DNA from: Arenicellales bacterium
GTDB lineage: Bacteria; Pseudomonadota; Gammaproteobacteria; Arenicellales; JAJDZL01
Length of the DNA: 64,000 nt
Assembly (NCBI GenBank): GCA_965214785.1
Contig: OZ243975.1
Span: 1,824,232-1,888,231 of the forward strand
Reading direction: 5' to 3'
Shown: positions 21,348 to 29,941 of the stretch, one piece after another
Layout: each line of letters begins with the position of its first letter
Numbering within the stretch: the first letter of the stretch is position 1
Notes under the pieces: generated by a model
Seen by the model: only the letters and a program-made list of their open reading frames with translations
The model's database searches: none
Told to the model about the DNA's origin: nothing
Position numbers and translations under genes: made by a program

Positions 21348-21986
21348 ATGAGCAAACAGTTTTATTCTACACTACAAAAGTGCAGTTTCGGCAGGTTCCT
21401 TCTGAGCTTAACCATTGCCTTCGCACTTTCAAACTCGATTTTGCTGACCGGTCATGCGAAATCGACACTGGACGATTGTGAAATCGGAGGTATGGAAACA
21501 CCCGACGACGCGCTTCTGACGAAGAGCGAGAAAATTGCGCTGATGGACAGGCAATTTCAGGATTCGCTTTTCGAGTTTGTTGAATGTATGAATCGACAGC
21601 CTTTGATGGCCACAGACTCACAAACAGGAGGCAGCGACGGGGTGTCGACATCGGCGATGGGCATTGAAGGCGATAGTGAACCGGAATATGCCAGCGACGA
21701 GCAATCCGAATCGACGCAAGAATTCGCCTCAGTGCCGATGAATCAGACTGAGGCTGGTGAAAGTCAAGAGTCGATGGAATATAACCAGGCATCTTTACCC
21801 GAGAGCGGGGCCAATGAGCCGCGTGACATCGCAATGAATAACGGCAGCATTCCAGAAGACATTAAACAATATGACAACGATTCGGTGCTGGAAGCTCAAA
21901 TCAAACAAGCTGCGATGAGTGAGGAAGACCCAGAGCTTCGAGAAAAGCTGTGGGACCAATATAGAAAATACAAACAAGGCAACTGA
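21348..21986 (+). CDS. Secreted acidic low-complexity protein with C-terminal helical motif (IPEDI...DSVLEAQIKQAAMSEEDPELREKLWDQYRKYK)
   Basis: Signal peptide ending GHA; Cys pair; acidic disordered middle; first gene of the + strand cluster. Confidence 0.75.
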   Translation: MSKQFYSTLQKCSFGRFLLSLTIAFALSNSILLTGHAKSTLDDCEIGGMETPDDALLTKSEKIALMDRQFQDSLFEFVECMNRQPLMATDSQTGGSDGVSTSAMGIEGDSEPEYASDEQSESTQEFASVPMNQTEAGESQESMEYNQASLPESGANEPRDIAMNNGSIPEDIKQYDNDSVLEAQIKQAAMSEEDPELREKLWDQYRKYKQGN

Positions 21987-22078
21987 GGCGGCTGTCAAGT
22001 TGCCTGCAGCAGTCTGAACAGACACAAGATTTCTATCATTCAGTTGAACGATATACAACCAGGAAGGAGAAAGTCCCA

Positions 22079-23308
22079 ATGAAATGGACGGTTAGAATAC
22101 TTACCATCGCTTCAATAGCGCTATTGTTGACAGGTTGCATGGGGTCAGGCACAACGTCCTCTTCGACCACAACTTCCTCAAGACCCATATTTGGTCTGAA
22201 CCTGGATCAAACCTCATCGCAAACACTGGCATCGAACTACACCGGCGTCAGACTTGATGTTGTCGTTCCAGTTTTTGATCCAGGCATTCCGGATAACCCG
22301 GATGATTATGAGAAACTGGGGATTTGGCCGGAAGTTCGCCGCACCGAAGCCATACGTTTTTCTTCGTTGCTTCAGGATGAACTGGTCAGAGTCAATACGT
22401 TCGGCGAAGTTCGAATAGCTCCCGATATTGCGGTTGCAAGCGACTTGTATGTTCTCGGAGAGATTGTCAAGTCCAACGGGGAAGACCTGGAGGTTAGACT
22501 TCAGGTGTATGCCGTAACAGGCAAGCGGTGGATGAAAAAAACCTACAAACATCGAGTGAAAGAACATCACTGGCAGGATCTGCGCAGCTCCGGGAAAGAC
22601 CCCTATCAGCCCTTGTTCAGAAAGGCTGCAAAAGATATAGCAGCGCTGATCAAGAAAAAGAGTTCTGAAAAACTCGCTGAAGTCAGGGCCATAACCGACC
22701 TGCAGTTTGCCAATTCGTTCTCGAATAATATTTTCATTGACCATCTGGAATTTGACGAAAAGGATAATATTTCGTTGGTGTCACTTCCTGCTGAAAACGA
22801 TCCGATGTTGCAGCGCACCCGTGCATTGAGAGTCGCTGACGGAGCGTTTATGGATCGGATGCAGATGAACTACGATGGCTTTATCCAAAAGACCGAAGAC
22901 AGTTATCTCGCCTGGCAGGAACACAGTCTGACTGCATCAAAGGAACGCCGCAAGGCAAATGACAAGGCTGCAATGCAGGGAATTATGGGAGCGCTGCTGC
23001 TGATAGGAGCAGCAAGTGCCGCAGACTCAAGTAATTCCACTTTGGAATCTGTAGCCGTTGGCGCAGCGGCCGTTGGCGGCGTGATGATGCTTCAAGATAG
23101 TTTTGCATCAAGTGCCGAAGGCAAATACCACCGAGATACTCTCAACGAGCTCGGGCATTCTCTTAATTTTGAAGTTGCACCACAAGTAATTGAAATTGAA
23201 GAGTCAAATGTCACATTGAGAGGAAATGTTCAAGAGCAATACCGCCAGTGGCGCGACATGCTCGGGAAAATCTATCAAGAAGAGGCAACTCCCAGTGTTC
23301 AACTGTAG
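22079..23308 (+). CDS. Outer-membrane lipoprotein of unknown function
   Basis: Lipobox LLLTG-C, +2 residue Met, Ser/Thr linker; Gly/Ala-rich hydrophobic hairpin near the C-terminus; AAGGAG RBS. Confidence 0.8.
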   Translation: MKWTVRILTIASIALLLTGCMGSGTTSSSTTTSSRPIFGLNLDQTSSQTLASNYTGVRLDVVVPVFDPGIPDNPDDYEKLGIWPEVRRTEAIRFSSLLQDELVRVNTFGEVRIAPDIAVASDLYVLGEIVKSNGEDLEVRLQVYAVTGKRWMKKTYKHRVKEHHWQDLRSSGKDPYQPLFRKAAKDIAALIKKKSSEKLAEVRAITDLQFANSFSNNIFIDHLEFDEKDNISLVSLPAENDPMLQRTRALRVADGAFMDRMQMNYDGFIQKTEDSYLAWQEHSLTASKERRKANDKAAMQGIMGALLLIGAASAADSSNSTLESVAVGAAAVGGVMMLQDSFASSAEGKYHRDTLNELGHSLNFEVAPQVIEIEESNVTLRGNVQEQYRQWRDMLGKIYQEEATPSVQL

Positions 23309-23420
23309 ACGATTTGCAACAGTGGAACTGACACAATTAGATAAATTGCTGGCGCGTGCCTCTGACACCACCTAGCAAATCACGATTTATGAACCCCTTC
23401 TGACGGTTCAGGTTTAATTC

Positions 23421-27919: not shown

Positions 27920-27932
27920 CCGGACTTCACCT

Positions 27933-29000
27933 GTGAAACGTCGTCGGAACAATTATGTTCTCGGGTTATCGCTACTCGATGTAATGGCCTGCGGCTTAGG
28001 TGCCGTGCTTTTGCTGTTTCTCATTATCAAACACAATACGGGAACTCTTGCCGCGCAGGAAGCTAAAGTCAATGTCGCAAGCCAAGTGGCAACACTTGAA
28101 GCTCTTCAAGCTCAAAAAGAAGATTTTCTAAGCGAAATCGAACTGTACTCAAAAATGCAGGAAATCCAAAACGAGGCAAAGTCAGAACTGCAAAAGGAAC
28201 GGACTGCGAAAAAAAAGATACTGGAACAGCTTCAAAAGGAAATAGACAAGGAGACAAAGAAAAAAGCTTCTCTGGAAAAGCAGGTCGCAGCACAACAGCC
28301 GAAACAGACGACCAGTGTTGTCGAAGATATTCAGCGCTCTGAAGAGCAGTACCTGATCGGCATGAAAGTTGAAGGCAGGAAAATTGTGATCTTGGTTGAC
28401 CACAGCGCATCTATGACGGACAACAAATTGATTGATGTCATCGTCCGTAAAGAAAGGTCAAATGCCCACAAAAGGAACGGGCCGAAGTGGCAGCGAACTA
28501 TACGTACCGCAAAGTGGCTGCTGAATCGGCTACCAAATAACAGCGAGGTGGCTGTCGTAACGTTCAACGAGTCTGCCAAGATTCTGAATCACGGCAAGTG
28601 GACAAGCAGCCGGGATGCTTCTGGGATCCAGAAACTATTCGATGAGATCGGTGAATTAATTCCATCTGGAGCAACCAATCTTGAGGCGGGTTTGGATGCA
28701 GTTTCAAAAAGACTGCCTCAGACAACAAACATCTACGTCATCACCGACGGTCTTCCAACCAAGGGGAAAGGATCGATCAAGCTGTTCCAGGGCTGTCAAT
28801 TTGTCAAGAACACCATCAGCGGTGAGTGCCGTTTGAAACTGTTCAACTCCGCAGCCGCAAATTTTCTGTCCGGCAAAAGGAGAGTCGTCAACGTCATTCT
28901 GTTGCCACTTGAAGGCGACCCCGACGCAGCCCACGCGTACTGGTCCTTCGCTGCACTAACAGGCGGCAGGATGCTGGCACCAGCGACAGGATGGCCATGA
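27933..29000 (+). CDS. MotB/ExbD-like TM anchor + coiled coil + vWA domain protein
   Basis: Basic N-terminus, TM LSLLD16VMACGLGAVLLLFLII, coiled coil, MIDAS VDHSAS...GATN...YVITDG. Confidence 0.85.
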   Translation: MKRRRNNYVLGLSLLDVMACGLGAVLLLFLIIKHNTGTLAAQEAKVNVASQVATLEALQAQKEDFLSEIELYSKMQEIQNEAKSELQKERTAKKKILEQLQKEIDKETKKKASLEKQVAAQQPKQTTSVVEDIQRSEEQYLIGMKVEGRKIVILVDHSASMTDNKLIDVIVRKERSNAHKRNGPKWQRTIRTAKWLLNRLPNNSEVAVVTFNESAKILNHGKWTSSRDASGIQKLFDEIGELIPSGATNLEAGLDAVSKRLPQTTNIYVITDGLPTKGKGSIKLFQGCQFVKNTISGECRLKLFNSAAANFLSGKRRVVNVILLPLEGDPDAAHAYWSFAALTGGRMLAPATGWP

Positions 29001-29941
29001 AACGAGAAAAGAGAAGATCTGAGACGTTCAACCTGGGTTTTCTGGATGTGATTACCTGCGGCTTCGGCGCGATTATTCTGTTAATTATTATTGTCAAGCC
29101 CATTCCTGTTGAATCAATCATTGACGGCAAGGATTCAGAGATTCTCGAACAGATTGCCGAACTTTCACTTGAAGTTACAGATCTGAAGAATCTTCTCTCG
29201 AAGTTAAGCGCCCAGGAGTTAAACGAGCGCGATGTGGATGAAGCCGATGAACGACTCCGGCAACAATCAATACAGATAGAGAATCAGGCGAGTAAACTTC
29301 AACAAGTGATAGACGAAAATGAAGCGCTTGAGATCGCACTGGAATCACTAAAAAGAGCAACGATTCAAGTTCAGGCGCAACCCACCGAACGCGATCCTGA
29401 AGTAGGCGGAATACCGGTAGACAGTGAGTATGTTATTTTTGTCATCGACAATTCAGGAAGCATGCAGGAAATTTGGGATCAGGTACTGAGCACCATCAAT
29501 CATCTGCTGGATGTTCACCCAACTGTTAAAGGATTTCAGGTGCTCAATGACAATGGTCAATTCCTTGTTGAGTCCTCTCGTCGAAAGTGGATGCCCGACA
29601 CCCCGAGGAGAAGGAATTTCGTGCGAAATCATCTTCGAGAATGGCGAGTATTTTCGAACAGTAGCCCGGCTGAAGGCATTCATATAGCCTTGCAGGTTTA
29701 CGCGAAAAAATACGACAAGATTTCAATATACGTGCTAGGTGATGAATTCTATGGCCCAAGTTACGACGAAGTGGTTGAAGTAGTGGAAAATTGGAATCCC
29801 CGAACTCATTCGGGGAAACCCAAAGTTCGCGTCCACGGCATCGGATTTATGTCTCGCGGGGGGACGGAGCGGTATGCAACGTTAATGCGAGCCGTTACGG
29901 AGAAGAATCGAGGCTCGTTTCTCGGTCTGCCCATACAGTAA
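28997..29941 (+). CDS. Second MotB/ExbD-like TM anchor + coiled coil + vWA domain protein
   Basis: TM LGFLD17VITCGFGAIILLIII, coiled coil, MIDAS IDNSGS...YVLGDE; ATGA overlap with the previous gene. Confidence 0.85.
   Translation: MKREKRRSETFNLGFLDVITCGFGAIILLIIIVKPIPVESIIDGKDSEILEQIAELSLEVTDLKNLLSKLSAQELNERDVDEADERLRQQSIQIENQASKLQQVIDENEALEIALESLKRATIQVQAQPTERDPEVGGIPVDSEYVIFVIDNSGSMQEIWDQVLSTINHLLDVHPTVKGFQVLNDNGQFLVESSRRKWMPDTPRRRNFVRNHLREWRVFSNSSPAEGIHIALQVYAKKYDKISIYVLGDEFYGPSYDEVVEVVENWNPRTHSGKPKVRVHGIGFMSRGGTERYATLMRAVTEKNRGSFLGLPIQ

What the first reader, a model, noticed from the sequence alone, without database searches (positions are those of the whole stretch)
21348..29941. Candidate undescribed ion-driven trans-envelope machine: MotA/ExbB channel with two vWA-bearing MotB/ExbD-like subunits
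Seen: eight co-oriented genes, the last six overlapping or within 13 bp. They encode an acidic secreted protein, a lipoprotein, a TPR-like/PEGA protein, a TM-PEGA-FGE-fold protein, a 57-aa SFPVDI protein, a MotA/TolQ/ExbB channel and two TM-coiled-coil-vWA proteins. Established: MotAB, ExbBD, TolQR, AglRQS and ZorAB are ion-driven motors whose B subunit has an essential TM Asp. Their periplasmic parts are OmpA-like or ExbD domains and they work with flagella, TonB/TolA, Glt or Zorya effectors. None of those partners is here. Inference: a distinct motor whose vWA heads engage a periplasmic scaffold reaching an outer-membrane lipoprotein, for secretion, uptake, adhesion or envelope maintenance. 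Function unknown; I cannot verify novelty without a search.
Basis: partly seen in the sequence, partly recalled or inferred. Interest (0 to 1): 0.88.

Follow-up and report, generated by a model that had tools for sequence, protein, structure and literature searches.

The report
Ion-driven motor with vWA-domain stator subunits
This is a real, tightly conserved eight-gene operon for a membrane ion-driven motor whose two inner subunits end in adhesive vWA heads; the motor core was predicted from sequence in a 2025 paper, but its five partner proteins and its function are still unexplored.

Summary
Window 21348-29941 (+) carries eight co-oriented genes with the stated domains.

- **Motor core.** g6 is a MotA/ExbB-family channel. 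g7 and g8 are paralogous proteins with a membrane helix, a helical stalk and a vWA domain. Each helix has an invariant Asp, and each vWA domain has an intact DxSxS metal-site motif.
- **Conservation.** 60 of 63 related loci with enough flank carry six of the genes (g2, g3, g4, g6, g7, g8), in the same order. These come from Alpha-, Beta-, Gamma- and Zetaproteobacteria, Desulfobacterota and Binatia. No other neighbour is conserved.
- **Prior description.** The core is not undescribed. Mol Biol Evol 2025 (PMC12204202) predicts this TolQ-like plus paired "transpore-helix vWA" motor. It gives no function or phenotype.
- **What is added here: the partner module.**
  - g2 is a lipoprotein with a PelC/FlgT/CsgG/TolB-N-like fold.
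  - g3 is a TPR superhelix plus a β-sandwich.
  - g4 is an inner-membrane-anchored PEGA array ending in a cysteine-less FGE/PorK-like domain.
  - g1 is a secreted acidic protein.
  - g5 is a tiny signal-peptide-bearing peptide that always ends in FPVDI.

Best reading: an ion-driven 5:2 motor that passes force to an outer-membrane-linked scaffold. I class it as a new member of a kind so far described only in silico. Interest is moderate to high.

The parts
21348..21986 (+). g1: secreted acidic protein of 212 aa. It has a signal-peptide-like N-terminus, a conserved two-Cys N-terminal module, a variable Gly/Ser/acidic linker and a conserved C-terminal module.
   Evidence: ORF. No Pfam or NCBIfam family. 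39 D+E against 16 K+R, with a hydrophobic segment at residues 17-34. The alignment shows the conserved modules. Found upstream of g2 in 60 of 63 flank-complete loci. The Atlas returns only 'hypothetical protein' clusters.
22079..23308 (+). g2: lipoprotein of 409 aa. It has an α/β domain (residues about 54-199) with a PelC/FlgT/CsgG/TolB-N-like fold. This is followed by a 73-residue helix and a return helix joined by a Gly/Ala-rich hydrophobic tip.
   Evidence: Lipobox with Cys20. AF2 model: pLDDT 84.7, pTM 0.79. VIA-align hits: LPHT ring/FlgT 8z5n Z 11.6 (rmsd 4.3, 159 aligned); PelC 5t10 Z 11.2 (rmsd 2.3, 110 aligned); CsgG 6lqh Z 10.6; TolB 7mx5 Z 10.2. Foldseek agrees. Hydrophobic segments at 297-315 and 322-338. 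No Pfam family. 919 cluster representatives at E<=1e-3.
23421..24974 (+). g3: periplasmic protein of 517 aa. It has a TPR-like α-superhelix (about residues 96-443) and a C-terminal β-sandwich (446-510).
   Evidence: AF2 model with pLDDT 87.5. Foldseek hits TPR proteins (P58IPK 1.3e-3, Sti1, OGT, PEX5, BamD). The C-terminal part hits the carboxypeptidase N/D/M β-sandwich domain. Pfam gives weak TPR hits. Present in 61 of 63 loci. In four tested orthologues of about 760 aa (L096, L098, L101, L105) a protein kinase domain precedes the TPR part.
24961..26991 (+). g4: inner-membrane-anchored protein of 676 aa. It has an N-terminal TM helix, an array of β-sandwich domains (CarboxypepD_reg plus three PEGA stretches) and a C-terminal FGE-sulfatase-fold domain that lacks the catalytic cysteines.
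   Evidence: Pfam: PEGA 4.2e-28, FGE-sulfatase 2.5e-28. A strong hydrophobic segment within residues 17-51. PDB sequence hits: SUMF1/FGE 1.4e-9 and PorK/GldK 3.4e-9. The whole protein has a single Cys. The family consensus has no Cys near the FGE active-site stretch. Present in 63 of 63 loci.
26995..27168 (+). g5: 57-aa precursor with a signal-peptide-like or TM N-terminus and an invariant C-terminal ...L-N-x-P-x-x-F-P-V-D-I-COOH. If signal peptidase cuts it, about 19 residues remain.
   Evidence: ORF. L47, P50, F53, P54, D56 and I57 are invariant in 31 sequences, and the consensus carries AxAQ 18-19 residues before the end. Found by HMM in 45 of 80 loci. A short ORF with this kind of ending (mostly FPVDI; also FPTDI, FPLDI, FPADI, FPINI) lies between g4 and g6 in 23 of the 31 loci the HMM missed.
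27170..27919 (+). g6: MotA/TolQ/ExbB-family channel subunit of 249 aa, the presumed pentamer.
   Evidence: PF01618 at 4.1e-14, 52.9 bits against a cut-off of 22.9. TolQ and ExbB NCBIfam equivalogs score far below cut-off. T174 and T207 in the two channel helices are invariant in 88 of 88 sequences. The family profile reaches solved MotA only at E 0.16 and TolQ at 0.76.
27933..29000 (+). g7: B-type subunit 1 of 355 aa. It has a transpore helix with Asp16, a charged helical stalk of about 100 residues, and a vWA domain with a complete MIDAS motif.
   Evidence: VWA_2 at 2.1e-11. D16 is present in 91 of 91 sequences: 76 in called ORFs, plus 15 read in frame upstream after an apparent CTG start. 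D156, S158, S160 and D272 are in 91 of 91; T248 in 90 of 91. The stalk (residues 38-140) is 67% E/K/Q/L/A/R with 1 Pro and 0 Gly.
28991..29941 (+). g8: B-type subunit 2 of 316 aa, a paralogue of g7. It has a transpore helix with Asp19, a helical stalk and a divergent vWA domain.
   Evidence: 26% identity to g7 over 181 residues, E 4e-11. D19 is in 89 of 89 sequences; D153, S155, S157, S224 and D251 are in 89 of 89. The Pfam VWA_2 hit is only 0.0057, below cut-off.

Best explanation
The operon encodes a self-contained machine that spans the envelope, built around an ion-motive-force-driven motor of the 5:2 type.

**Proposed mechanism**
1. A ring of the MotA/TolQ-like protein g6 surrounds one g7 and one g8 membrane helix. 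Pentameric stoichiometry is assumed by analogy with MotAB, ExbBD, TolQR and GldLM; this is recalled knowledge.
2. Each of the two helices carries the invariant Asp that takes up the ion. These proteins replace MotB, ExbD or TolR.
3. Ion flow turns the ring and the g7/g8 dimer relative to each other.
4. The stalks of about 100 helical residues lift two metal-site (MIDAS) vWA heads into the periplasm. There the heads grip an acidic ligand on the partner module.

**The partner module**
- g4: anchored in the inner membrane, a rod of β-sandwich PEGA domains ending in a catalytically dead FGE/PorK-like lectin-fold head.
- g3: a TPR superhelix plus a β-sandwich.
- g2: a lipoprotein whose fold is that of ring-forming outer-membrane lipoproteins, with a long helical hairpin and a hydrophobic tip.
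- g1 and g5: two small exported partners, the acidic g1 and the FPVDI-ending g5 peptide.

**Net effect:** inner-membrane energy is delivered to an outer-membrane-associated structure, as in Tol-Pal, TonB or the type IX PorLM-PorKN system.

**Two variants remain open**
- (A) The vWA dimer is the moving part, as PMC12204202 proposes.
- (B) The vWA dimer is the fixed anchor, like MotB, and the turning g6 ring pulls on the membrane helix of g4. g4 has the same three-part layout as TonB and TolA: a membrane helix, a long spacer and a globular head.

**Shown:** the gene set, the domains, the invariant residues, the folds of g2 and g3, and operon conservation.

**Inferred:** stoichiometry, rotation, all protein contacts, the outer-membrane location of g2, cleavage of g5, and the process that is driven. 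My ranking for that process is outer-membrane tethering or remodelling, or gating of a g2 ring, first; then export or handling of g1/g5; then signalling.
For: **Channel and B subunits**
- g6 passes the Pfam MotA_ExbB cut-off (52.9 against 22.9 bits).
- No ExbD or OmpA-like protein is in the cluster. The genome's only ExbD-family gene lies about 300 kb away, next to its best MotA_ExbB hit.
- The g7 and g8 N-terminal helices carry Asp in 91 of 91 and 89 of 89 homologues.
- g6 keeps Thr174 and Thr207 in 88 of 88.
- The MIDAS residues DxSxS...T...D are invariant or nearly so in g7. DxSxS plus S224 and D251 are invariant in g8.
- g7 and g8 are paralogues (26% identity) and always occur as a pair (63 of 63 loci).

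**Operon conservation**
- Co-linear g2-g3-g4-g6-g7-g8 is found in 10 of 10 loci and in 60 of 63.
- g1 is found in 60 of 63 loci. g5 is found in at least 68 of 80 loci.
- No other conserved neighbour is seen: the best other ORF cluster occurs in 14 loci.
- Five of the six tight junctions in the window overlap or lie within 13 nt.

**Location of the products**
- All five accessory products carry a signal peptide, a lipobox or a single N-terminal membrane helix, so they face the periplasm.
- The g2 fold matches FlgT/LPHT ring, PelC dodecamer, CsgG and the TolB N-domain at Z 10.2-11.6.
- The g4 head matches FGE and PorK/GldK equally and lacks the cysteine pair.

**Independent support**
- PMC12204202 (section 8, read in full) reports AF3 models of this kind of pair. 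In them the Asp sits inside a Thr ring of the TolQ-like pentamer.
- A g2 homologue fused to a TonB C-terminal domain exists (P0162, 3.1e-15). This fits an outer-membrane-proximal role.
Against: - There are no experimental data for any member. The paper states that no phenotypes are known.
- I could not model the 5:2 assembly here because of the tool's size and chain limits.
- g6 is very distant from every solved stator (profile E 0.16 to MotA, 0.76 to TolQ). Membership rests on the Pfam model.
- The g8 vWA domain is below Pfam cut-offs.
- No outer-membrane β-barrel and no peptidoglycan-binding domain is encoded. What anchors the system is therefore open.
- The g4 membrane helix has no conserved polar motif comparable to the SHLS motif of TonB and TolA (consensus). 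This weakens variant B.
- The system is patchy: 20 of 401 genomes in an even draw of the phylum, 8 of 212 genera; 14 of 24 species of the same genus. It is therefore an accessory function and not a housekeeping one like Tol-Pal.
- In four tested orthologues g3 is fused to a Ser/Thr kinase domain. This points to signalling more than to pure mechanics.
- Fold similarity of g2 to ring-forming lipoproteins does not show that g2 forms a ring or sits in the outer membrane.
Confidence: 0.6

Rival explanations
1. A type-IX-like export or surface-handling device. The motor (as PorL/PorM does) drives a periplasmic or outer-membrane assembly containing an FGE-fold protein (as PorK does). This moves or releases a cargo, for example the acidic g1, the g5 peptide or a polymer, through a g2 ring.
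For: The g4 head matches PorK/GldK as well as it matches FGE (3.4e-9 against 1.4e-9; GldK NCBIfam 1.2e-16). The g2 fold matches PelC and CsgG, both parts of export conduits. g1 and g5 are small exported products that are always co-encoded.
Against: The GldK equivalog scores 61 bits against a cut-off of 350. No GldL, GldM or GldN hit appears among the eight proteins. g4 is anchored by an N-terminal membrane helix; it is not a lipoprotein. No β-barrel translocon, glycosyltransferase or cargo signal is encoded.
Confidence: 0.15
2. An envelope sensor or signalling module. TPR, PEGA and FGE-like domains act as periplasmic ligand sensors, as they do in many bacterial Ser/Thr kinases (recalled). The motor serves to probe or reset the sensor.
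For: In 4 of 4 tested long g3 orthologues (L096, L098, L101, L105) a protein kinase domain (Pkinase 1.2e-26 to 7.3e-13) precedes the TPR part. The group of loci that carries an extra, apparently cytoplasmic gene (no hydrophobic segment) of about 430-476 aa between g6 and g7 includes these four.
Against: The window's g3 and most orthologues have no kinase or other output domain. Orthologue lengths are about 470-530 aa, and Pfam gives only weak TPR hits for the window's g3. No response regulator or transcription factor is conserved nearby.
Confidence: 0.12
3. A surface adhesion or gliding apparatus of the Agl-Glt type, in which a vWA protein couples a proton-driven motor to the substratum.
For: The Myxococcus system uses a MotA/TolQ-like motor and the vWA adhesin CglB (PMC9946355, search listing and abstract only). 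PMC12204202 mentions gliding as a possibility for the other vWA family, the one with a TolA/TonB-like membrane helix, not for this one.
Against: Here the vWA domains are tethered to the inner membrane on stalks of about 100 residues, so they are not on the surface. No Glt-like proteins are conserved nearby. Hosts include many planktonic marine lineages and symbionts.
Confidence: 0.06
4. An anti-phage defence system related to Zorya.
For: g6 has weak PADLOC hits to ZorA models (1.9e-4 and 7.2e-3, over residues 155-240 only). A HipA/HTH toxin-antitoxin pair lies just downstream in the window.
Against: No ZorB, ZorC, ZorD or ZorE hit. g6 has 249 aa and no long cytoplasmic tail. All accessory proteins are extracytoplasmic, and no nuclease or other effector is present. 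Flanking genes are not conserved between genomes. No copy was found on 72,556 plasmids.
Confidence: 0.04

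Closest known systems
TolQ-like motor with paired 'transpore-helix vWA' proteins, predicted in silico in Mol Biol Evol 2025;42:msaf138 (PMC12204202, section 8, Fig. 4c,d)
   Same: A tolQ-like gene sits next to a heterologous pair of membrane-tethered vWA genes. 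There is no tolR, exbD or motB. The membrane helix has a conserved Asp and the channel has conserved Thr. There is no SHLS motif. The family is found in Proteobacteria and the function is unknown (tested here).
   Different: Nothing in the core differs. The paper's main text has no mention of PEGA, sulfatase/formylglycine or MIDAS (0 occurrences each), and section 8 and the Fig. 4 legend, read in full, name no partner genes for this family. The five conserved partner genes are therefore documented here for the first time as far as I could see. Fig. 4c itself and the supplements could not be viewed. Direct sequence comparison with the paper's Idiomarina seed was not possible. An Aliidiomarina locus (L085) carries the full cluster.
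Tol-Pal (TolQ-TolR-TolA-TolB-Pal-CpoB)
   Same: Both have a MotA/ExbB-family channel, a B subunit with an Asp in the pore helix, and a membrane-anchored protein with a long spacer and a globular head (TolA against g4). Both have a periplasmic protein or lipoprotein with the TolB-N fold (g2, Z 10.2 to TolB) and a TPR protein (CpoB against g3). The layout of Tol-Pal is recalled knowledge.
   Different: The TolQ equivalog scores 21.8 bits against a cut-off of 221. There is no TolR/ExbD domain, no TolA/TonB C-terminal domain, no β-propeller and no OmpA-like Pal. The genome has its own TolQ-TolR elsewhere. The system is accessory, not near-universal.
Type IX secretion motor and ring (GldL/PorL, GldM/PorM, GldK/PorK, GldN/PorN)
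   Same: A 5:2-type ion-driven motor has a B subunit that reaches far into the periplasm. It works with an FGE-fold protein that has lost catalysis (for the fold match; the architecture is recalled).
   Different: No GldL, GldM or GldN homology. GldK similarity is at domain level only (61 against 350 bits). g4 is anchored in the inner membrane and is not a lipoprotein. The B subunits end in vWA domains.
Flagellar stators MotAB/PomAB with the Vibrio H/T-ring (FlgT, MotX, MotY)
   Same: Both have a MotA-family channel and a B subunit with a pore Asp. The best structural match of g2 is FlgT in the LPHT ring (Z 11.6), a periplasmic ring component. That the H/T rings (FlgT, MotX, MotY) hold the PomAB stators in place is recalled knowledge.
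   Different: No OmpA-like peptidoglycan-binding domain and no plug or linker. No flagellar genes are nearby. The g6 profile reaches solved MotA only at E 0.16.
Zorya (ZorAB plus effectors)
   Same: A MotA/ExbB-superfamily channel in a non-flagellar, non-Ton/Tol context.
   Different: Only weak ZorA hits; no ZorB, C, D or E; no tail; no cytoplasmic effector.

Membership tests
TolQ-like + paired TPH-vWA motor (PMC12204202) | tolQ-like gene directly adjacent to the vWA genes | tested here: met
   g6 ends at 27919 and g7 starts at 27933. PF01618 and VWA_2 hits. The same adjacency holds in 49 of 63 loci. In 14 loci one extra gene lies between them.
TolQ-like + paired TPH-vWA motor (PMC12204202) | no tolR/exbD/motB gene in the cluster | tested here: met
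   No ExbD or OmpA family hit among the eight proteins at E<=0.1. The genome's single PF02472 hit is at C1:1547564-1547947, far from the window.
TolQ-like + paired TPH-vWA motor (PMC12204202) | vWA genes occur as a heterologous pair | tested here: met
   g7 and g8 share 26% identity over 181 residues. Both are present in 63 of 63 loci.
TolQ-like + paired TPH-vWA motor (PMC12204202) | transpore helix with a conserved Asp; no SHLS motif | tested here: met
   D16 in 91 of 91 and D19 in 89 of 89 sequences. No S-H-L-S string in either N-terminus (read).
TolQ-like + paired TPH-vWA motor (PMC12204202) | conserved Thr ring in the channel around the Asp pair | tested here: inconclusive
   T174 and T207 are invariant in 88 of 88 at sequence level. 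Their position around the Asp was not modelled here.
TolQ-like + paired TPH-vWA motor (PMC12204202) | sequence homology to the paper's seed proteins (Idiomarina) | not testable with these tools
   Accessions are not in the main text and the supplements are closed. Indirect support: the Aliidiomarina locus L085 has the full cluster.
MotA/TolQ/ExbB superfamily (Pfam PF01618) | score above the curated Pfam cut-off | tested here: met
   52.9 bits against 22.9, covering residues 124-235.
ExbD/TolR (PF02472) or MotB (OmpA-like) B subunits | periplasmic ExbD fold or OmpA-like peptidoglycan-binding domain | tested here: not met
   No such hit in g7 or g8 at E<=0.1. Their periplasmic domains are vWA.
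TolQ of Tol-Pal (NCBIfam TIGR02796) | equivalog score above cut-off | tested here: not met
   21.8 bits against a cut-off of 221.
Type IX secretion GldK/PorK (TIGR03525) with GldL/M/N | equivalog-level match and presence of GldL/M/N | tested here: not met
   GldK scores 61 bits against a cut-off of 350. No GldL, GldM or GldN hits among the eight proteins.
Zorya | ZorA with a long tail, ZorB, and ZorC/D or ZorE | tested here: not met
   Only weak ZorA hits to g6 (1.9e-4), and nothing for the other seven proteins. g6 is 249 aa.
vWA domain with MIDAS | Pfam vWA above cut-off; DxSxS...T...D metal-site residues | tested here: met
   g7: VWA_2 at 44.8 bits against 27, with all five MIDAS positions conserved. 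g8: below cut-off (17.7 bits), but DxSxS, S224 and D251 are invariant. g8 is therefore met by motif only.
Formylglycine-generating enzyme (catalytic) | FGE fold plus the catalytic cysteine pair | tested here: not met
   The fold is met (99.9 bits against 23.3). The protein has one Cys in all. There is none in the stretch aligned to the SUMF1 active site and none in the family consensus there. The positions of the SUMF1 cysteines are recalled.
PelC/CsgG/FlgT/TolB-N-like lipoproteins | shared α/β fold; oligomeric ring at the outer membrane | tested here: inconclusive
   The fold is shared at Z 10.2-11.6 over residues 54-199. There is no sequence-family hit. Oligomerisation and location were not tested.

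The most novel reading that the evidence does not exclude
The eight proteins form a functionally separate class of ion-driven trans-envelope machine. It is neither Ton, Tol, flagellar, Agl-Glt, type IX nor Zorya. A 5:2 motor has B subunits that end in MIDAS vWA heads. The machine has its own ring-type lipoprotein (g2), a PorK-like lectin-fold rod (g4) and a secreted ~19-residue peptide ending in FPVDI. That peptide (g5) serves as the metal-site or lectin-site ligand that couples or gates the machine.
Probability: 0.4. Interest if true: 0.85.

Novelty: new member of a known kind. Interest (0 to 1): 0.6.

Why it matters
Ion-driven 5:2 motors power flagella, nutrient import, envelope integrity, gliding, type IX secretion and a phage defence. 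Each newly understood partner set has opened a field.

This family is widespread. In an even draw of the phylum, 20 of 401 genomes carry it. It has no known function.

The 2025 paper left open what the vWA motors act on. The conserved partner set defined here gives concrete, testable candidates. Several culturable hosts are available for testing, among them Pseudoalteromonas, Glaciecola, Alishewanella, Sneathiella, Magnetovibrio, Denitrobaculum and Aestuariispira.

Tried and rejected
**Complex prediction.**
- The job held g3 (residues 90-517), the g4 FGE domain (430-676), the g7 vWA domain (135-355) and the g5 tail (28-57, as partner).
- The verdict was 'no answer'. The three runs scored 0.44, 0.48 and 0.40.
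- Controls with the partner replaced scored 0.00 and 0.00. The control with g3 replaced scored 0.40.
- This is not used as evidence either way.
- A 5x g6 + g7 + g8 job was not possible: it would need 7 chains and about 1,900 residues against limits of 6 and 1,000.

**Expression.** The look-up of sequencing runs listed no RNA holder. The four runs that hold the stretch come from one study, and their kind (RNA or DNA) is not on record.

**Regulatory signals.**
- The promoter and terminator scan found 6 promoter-like and 11 terminator-like sites. These are not above the shuffles (means 10.0 and 11.3).
- Rfam at E<=0.1 over 20000-30500 gave no match.

**Family searches on g1, g2 and g5.** Pfam, NCBIfam and PADLOC gave nothing. 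The protein Atlas returned only 'hypothetical protein' clusters for g2 and g1.

**Extra genes seen in some loci.**
- These are a 476-aa gene between g6 and g7, and 245-aa and 237-aa genes downstream.
- They have no Pfam family. They have no NCBIfam family either, apart from one sub-threshold hit for the 237-aa gene.
- The 476-aa protein was also searched against PDB sequences and gave no match.

**Shared P-x-D-I motif between g1 and g5.** It is present in 45 of 65 g1 orthologues and absent from the Alteromonadales-type g1. It is kept only as a lead.

**Rejected readings.** BatA-E/MoxR-type vWA systems are rejected because no MoxR ATPase or DUF58 is present. A plasmid-borne mobile system is rejected because no hit was found in 72,556 plasmids at E<=1e-10.

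**Idiomarinaceae check.** The family-level draw around the Aliidiomarina genome gave 13 of 61 genomes with a g8 homologue. It could not tell whether the paper's Idiomarina species is among them.

**Literature.**
- Searches found only PMC12204202 for this gene combination.
- PMC12204202: I read section 8 with the Fig. 4 legend in full, plus passages. The figures and supplements were not seen.
- PMC12505986: abstract, outline and passages; there is no vWA mention.
- PMC7159879: passages only; there is no MotA or TolQ mention.
- PMC9946355 and PMC11761067: search listing and abstract start only.
- The library lacks most subscription journals, so 'not in print' holds only for these searches.

Full report
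**1. Observation**

The window holds eight co-oriented ORFs on the + strand:
- g1: 21348-21986
- g2: 22079-23308
- g3: 23421-24974
- g4: 24961-26991
- g5: 26995-27168
- g6: 27170-27919
- g7: 27933-29000
- g8: 28991-29941

Junctions from g3 to g8 are -14, +3, +1, +13 and -10 nt.

Pfam results:
- g6: MotA_ExbB, 4.1e-14, above cut-off.
- g7: VWA_2, 2.1e-11.
- g8: a sub-threshold vWA hit, 0.0057.
- g4: three PEGA stretches, CarboxypepD_reg and FGE-sulfatase, 2.5e-28.
- g3: weak TPR hits.
- g1, g2 and g5: nothing.

NCBIfam and PADLOC add only sub-threshold TolQ, ExbB, GldK and ZorA similarities.

g1 is acidic and has a signal-peptide-like start. g2 has a lipobox. g4, g7 and g8 each have one N-terminal membrane helix.

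**2. Conservation**

The g6 protein has close homologues in 14 of 24 other species of the same genus and in several other families of the order.

Ten loci from nine of these genomes all carry g2-g3-g4-g6-g7-g8 in the same order. g1 precedes them in all ten (eight by tblastn; the remaining two by blastp against called ORFs). The window's own flanking genes are not found there.

A degenerate-pattern scan of one genome per species found 541 relatives of g7 among 600 matched stretches. The closest records are labelled Arenicellales metagenome-assembled genomes. Others come from:
- Sneathiella, Magnetovibrio, Denitrobaculum, Aestuariispira and Rhodovibrionaceae
- Nitrosomonadaceae
- Zetaproteobacteria and Mariprofundus
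- Desulfobacteraceae
- Binatia
- Methylophaga
- Glaciecola, Pseudoalteromonas, Alishewanella, Aliidiomarina and Opacimonas
- SAR92 and Porticoccaceae

I built profile HMMs from the first 11 sequences of each gene and searched them against all ORFs of these loci. Of the 63 loci with at least 8 kb upstream of g7:
- g4, g6, g7 and g8 were each present in 63.
- g2 and g3 were each present in 61.
- g1 was present in 60.
- All six larger genes (g2, g3, g4, g6, g7, g8) were present in 60, always co-linear.

The three exceptions are L031 (no g3 found), L089 (no g1-g3 upstream; a single-cell assembly) and L100 (no g1 or g2; a TPR-TonB_C gene instead).

Clustering of all other ORFs found no further conserved neighbour. 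The best cluster occurs in 14 loci and is an extra gene between g6 and g7.

An even draw of the phylum gave a g8 homologue in 20 of 401 genomes, or 8 of 212 genera. None was found on 72,556 plasmids. The operon is therefore a discrete, patchily distributed, chromosomal eight-gene unit.

**3. The motor core**

Alignments of 88-91 homologues show the following.
- **g7:** Asp16 sits in the membrane helix in 91 of 91. Of these, 15 were seen only after reading upstream of my ORF call, where the gene appears to start with CTG. The MIDAS residues D156, S158, S160 and D272 are in 91 of 91, and T248 in 90 of 91.
- **g8:** Asp19 is in 89 of 89. D153, S155, S157, S224 and D251 are in 89 of 89.
- **g6:** T174 and T207, in the two helices of the MotA_ExbB domain, are in 88 of 88.

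g7 and g8 are paralogues with 26% identity over the helix, the stalk and the start of the vWA domain. Between the helix and the vWA domain lies a stretch of about 100 residues. In g7 it is 67% E/K/Q/L/A/R with one Pro and no Gly.

The genome's only ExbD-family gene sits beside its best MotA_ExbB hit about 300 kb away. g6 therefore has no conventional B subunit.

g6 is a remote branch of the superfamily. Its family profile reaches solved MotA only at E 0.16 and TolQ at 0.76.

**4. Prior description**

Five full-text searches found one relevant paper: Mol Biol Evol 2025;42:msaf138 (PMC12204202). [quoted passage not shown] 4 legend in full. The section describes:
- genes that occur mostly as heterologous pairs and lack the SHLS motif;
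- a transpore helix with the conserved Asp, which AF3 places inside a ring of conserved Thr of the TolQ-like pentamer.

The seed was an Idiomarina species. The reported range is mainly Proteobacteria and Verrucomicrobia. No function or phenotype is given.

Every defining feature I could test is met here (see Membership tests). I therefore file the window's g6-g7-g8 as a member of that predicted family.

The paper's main text contains no occurrence of PEGA, sulfatase, formylglycine or MIDAS. I could not see Fig. 4c or the supplements, which may show the neighbours graphically.

**5. The partner module (new here as far as I could see)**

*g2.* The model has pLDDT 84.7 and pTM 0.79.
- Residues 54-199 form an α/β domain. 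Its matches are:
  - FlgT in the Vibrio LPHT ring: Z 11.6, rmsd 4.3, 159 aligned.
  - PelC dodecamer: Z 11.2, rmsd 2.3, 110 aligned.
  - CT253: Z 11.0.
  - CsgG: Z 10.6.
  - DUF330/PqiC-type lipoproteins.
  - TolB N-domain: Z 10.2.
  - TraT decamer: Z 7.7.
- These values stand above the tool's stated background of Z 7-8.
- After this domain comes a 73-residue helix (242-314). Its end and the following return helix are Gly/Ala-rich and hydrophobic (297-315 and 322-338).
- The family has 919 cluster representatives at E<=1e-3, nearly all about 400 aa, and no Pfam model.
- One homologue (P0162) carries a TonB C-terminal domain at 3.1e-15.

*g3.* The model has pLDDT 87.5. It is a long TPR-like superhelix with a C-terminal β-sandwich of the carboxypeptidase-regulatory/PEGA kind.

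*g4.* It has a membrane helix, four β-sandwich units and an FGE-fold head.
- The head is equally similar to human FGE (1.4e-9) and to PorK/GldK (3.4e-9).
- The whole protein has a single Cys.
- Neither it nor the family consensus has Cys at the stretch aligned to the FGE active site.
- The head is therefore a binding module and not an enzyme.

*g5.* This is the most unusual piece.
- L47, P50, F53, P54, D56 and I57 are invariant in 31 sequences.
- The protein always ends ...FPVDI or a near variant.
- A signal-peptide-like N-terminus is followed by a consensus AxAQ 18-19 residues before the end.
- It was found by HMM in 45 of 80 loci. A short ORF with this kind of ending lies between g4 and g6 in 23 of the 31 loci the HMM missed.
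- Cleavage to a peptide of about 19 residues is inference from the AxA rule (recalled).

*g1.* It has a conserved two-Cys N-terminal module, a variable acidic or Gly/Ser linker, and a conserved C-terminal module.

**6. Mechanism**

The best-supported reading is an ion-driven 5:2 motor in which g7 and g8 replace MotB, ExbD or TolR. Their MIDAS vWA heads, carried on long stalks, bind an acidic ligand in a periplasmic or outer-membrane scaffold made of g4, g3 and g2, with g1 and g5 as small exported partners.

The length of the g4 β-sandwich rod and that of the g7/g8 stalk are of the same order. This is my estimate from domain counts, not a measurement. If it holds, the FGE-like head and the vWA heads could meet below the outer membrane.

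Two variants remain open:
- The vWA dimer turns, as the 2025 paper proposes.
- The vWA dimer is the fixed anchor, and the turning g6 ring pulls on the g4 membrane helix in the manner of TonB and TolA. Against this second variant, the g4 helix has no conserved polar motif.

What the machine does is not known. The patchy distribution argues against a housekeeping role like Tol-Pal.

The kinase domain fused to g3 in four tested orthologues keeps a signalling role alive. So does the extra, apparently cytoplasmic gene seen in a group of loci that includes these four.

The single complex-prediction job gave no verdict and is reported only under Tried and rejected.

**7. Comparison and novelty**

In working principle the system resembles Tol-Pal, TonB, the type IX PorLM-PorKN pair and the Vibrio stator-ring arrangement. 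It fails the membership tests of all of these and of Zorya.

It meets the tested features of the in-silico TolQ-like/TPH-vWA family. I therefore rate it a new member of a known (predicted) kind and not a categorically new system.

The added value here has three parts:
- proof that the motor is embedded in a strictly conserved eight-gene operon;
- folds for the lipoprotein and the TPR protein;
- recognition of the FPVDI peptide, the dead FGE head, and the kinase and TonB_C fusions.

**8. Verdict**

- Confidence in the motor-plus-scaffold reading is 0.6.
- Interest is 0.6.

The most novel reading not excluded is a functionally separate class of trans-envelope machine with its own ring lipoprotein and peptide ligand. 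I give it a probability of 0.4 and an interest of 0.85 if true.

Noticed in passing
window 16721-18442 (-): A 573-aa protein with many ankyrin repeats (Ank_2 9.9e-53), plus Sel1 and a PG_binding_1 domain. That ankyrin-rich proteins are typical of host-associated bacteria is recalled. The two ORFs between it and the operon (18415-19953 and 19817-20770, both on the - strand) have no Pfam family.
   Followed up: no
window 30031-31849 (-): A HipA-like kinase toxin (HipA_C 4.4e-48, Couple_hipA 4.2e-20) sits with an upstream HTH_3 protein that overlaps it. It lies directly downstream of the operon on the other strand. It is not conserved next to the operon in other genomes.
   Followed up: partly
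L096, L098, L101, L105 (g3 orthologues of about 760 aa): The g3 orthologue has an N-terminal Ser/Thr protein kinase domain (Pkinase 1.2e-26 to 7.3e-13) before the TPR part. These four loci also carry long acidic g5 variants and the extra gene between g6 and g7.
   Followed up: partly
14 loci, e.g. L100:8581-10011, L088, L091, L094-L099, L101, L104, L105; also L024 and L026: An extra gene of about 430-476 aa lies between g6 and g7. It has no hydrophobic segment and no Pfam, NCBIfam or PDB sequence match.
   Followed up: partly
P0162; L100:2311-3648 and three other loci: A g2 homologue is fused to a TonB C-terminal domain (3.1e-15). A TPR plus TonB_C protein is encoded just upstream of the operon in 4 loci.
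   Followed up: no
15 loci (L035, L038, L042, L048, L050-L054, L060, L070, L072, L075, L078, L082): The g7 orthologue appears to start with CTG. The conserved N-terminus, including the Asp, is read in frame upstream of the first ATG/GTG/TTG.
   Followed up: partly
L019 (G005) 5743-8210: The g4 orthologue is split into two ORFs by an insert of about 2.5 kb. This may be a mobile element. I did not examine it.
   Followed up: no
G035 (L023 and L024); G461; G492: G035 and G461 each carry two copies of the operon or of g8. The g8 homologue in G492 has an in-frame TAA.
   Followed up: no
own genome G000:C1:2311352-2311621 and 2140761-2141030: Two further MotA_ExbB-family hits (2.8e-10 and 1.2e-4) lie in the same genome, with no ExbD-family gene anywhere near. 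Their partners were not examined.
   Followed up: no
8 loci, e.g. L102:3429-4166 and L095:12747-13460: Two further co-oriented genes (245 aa and 237 aa) follow g8 in 8 loci. They have no Pfam family and no NCBIfam family above threshold.
   Followed up: no
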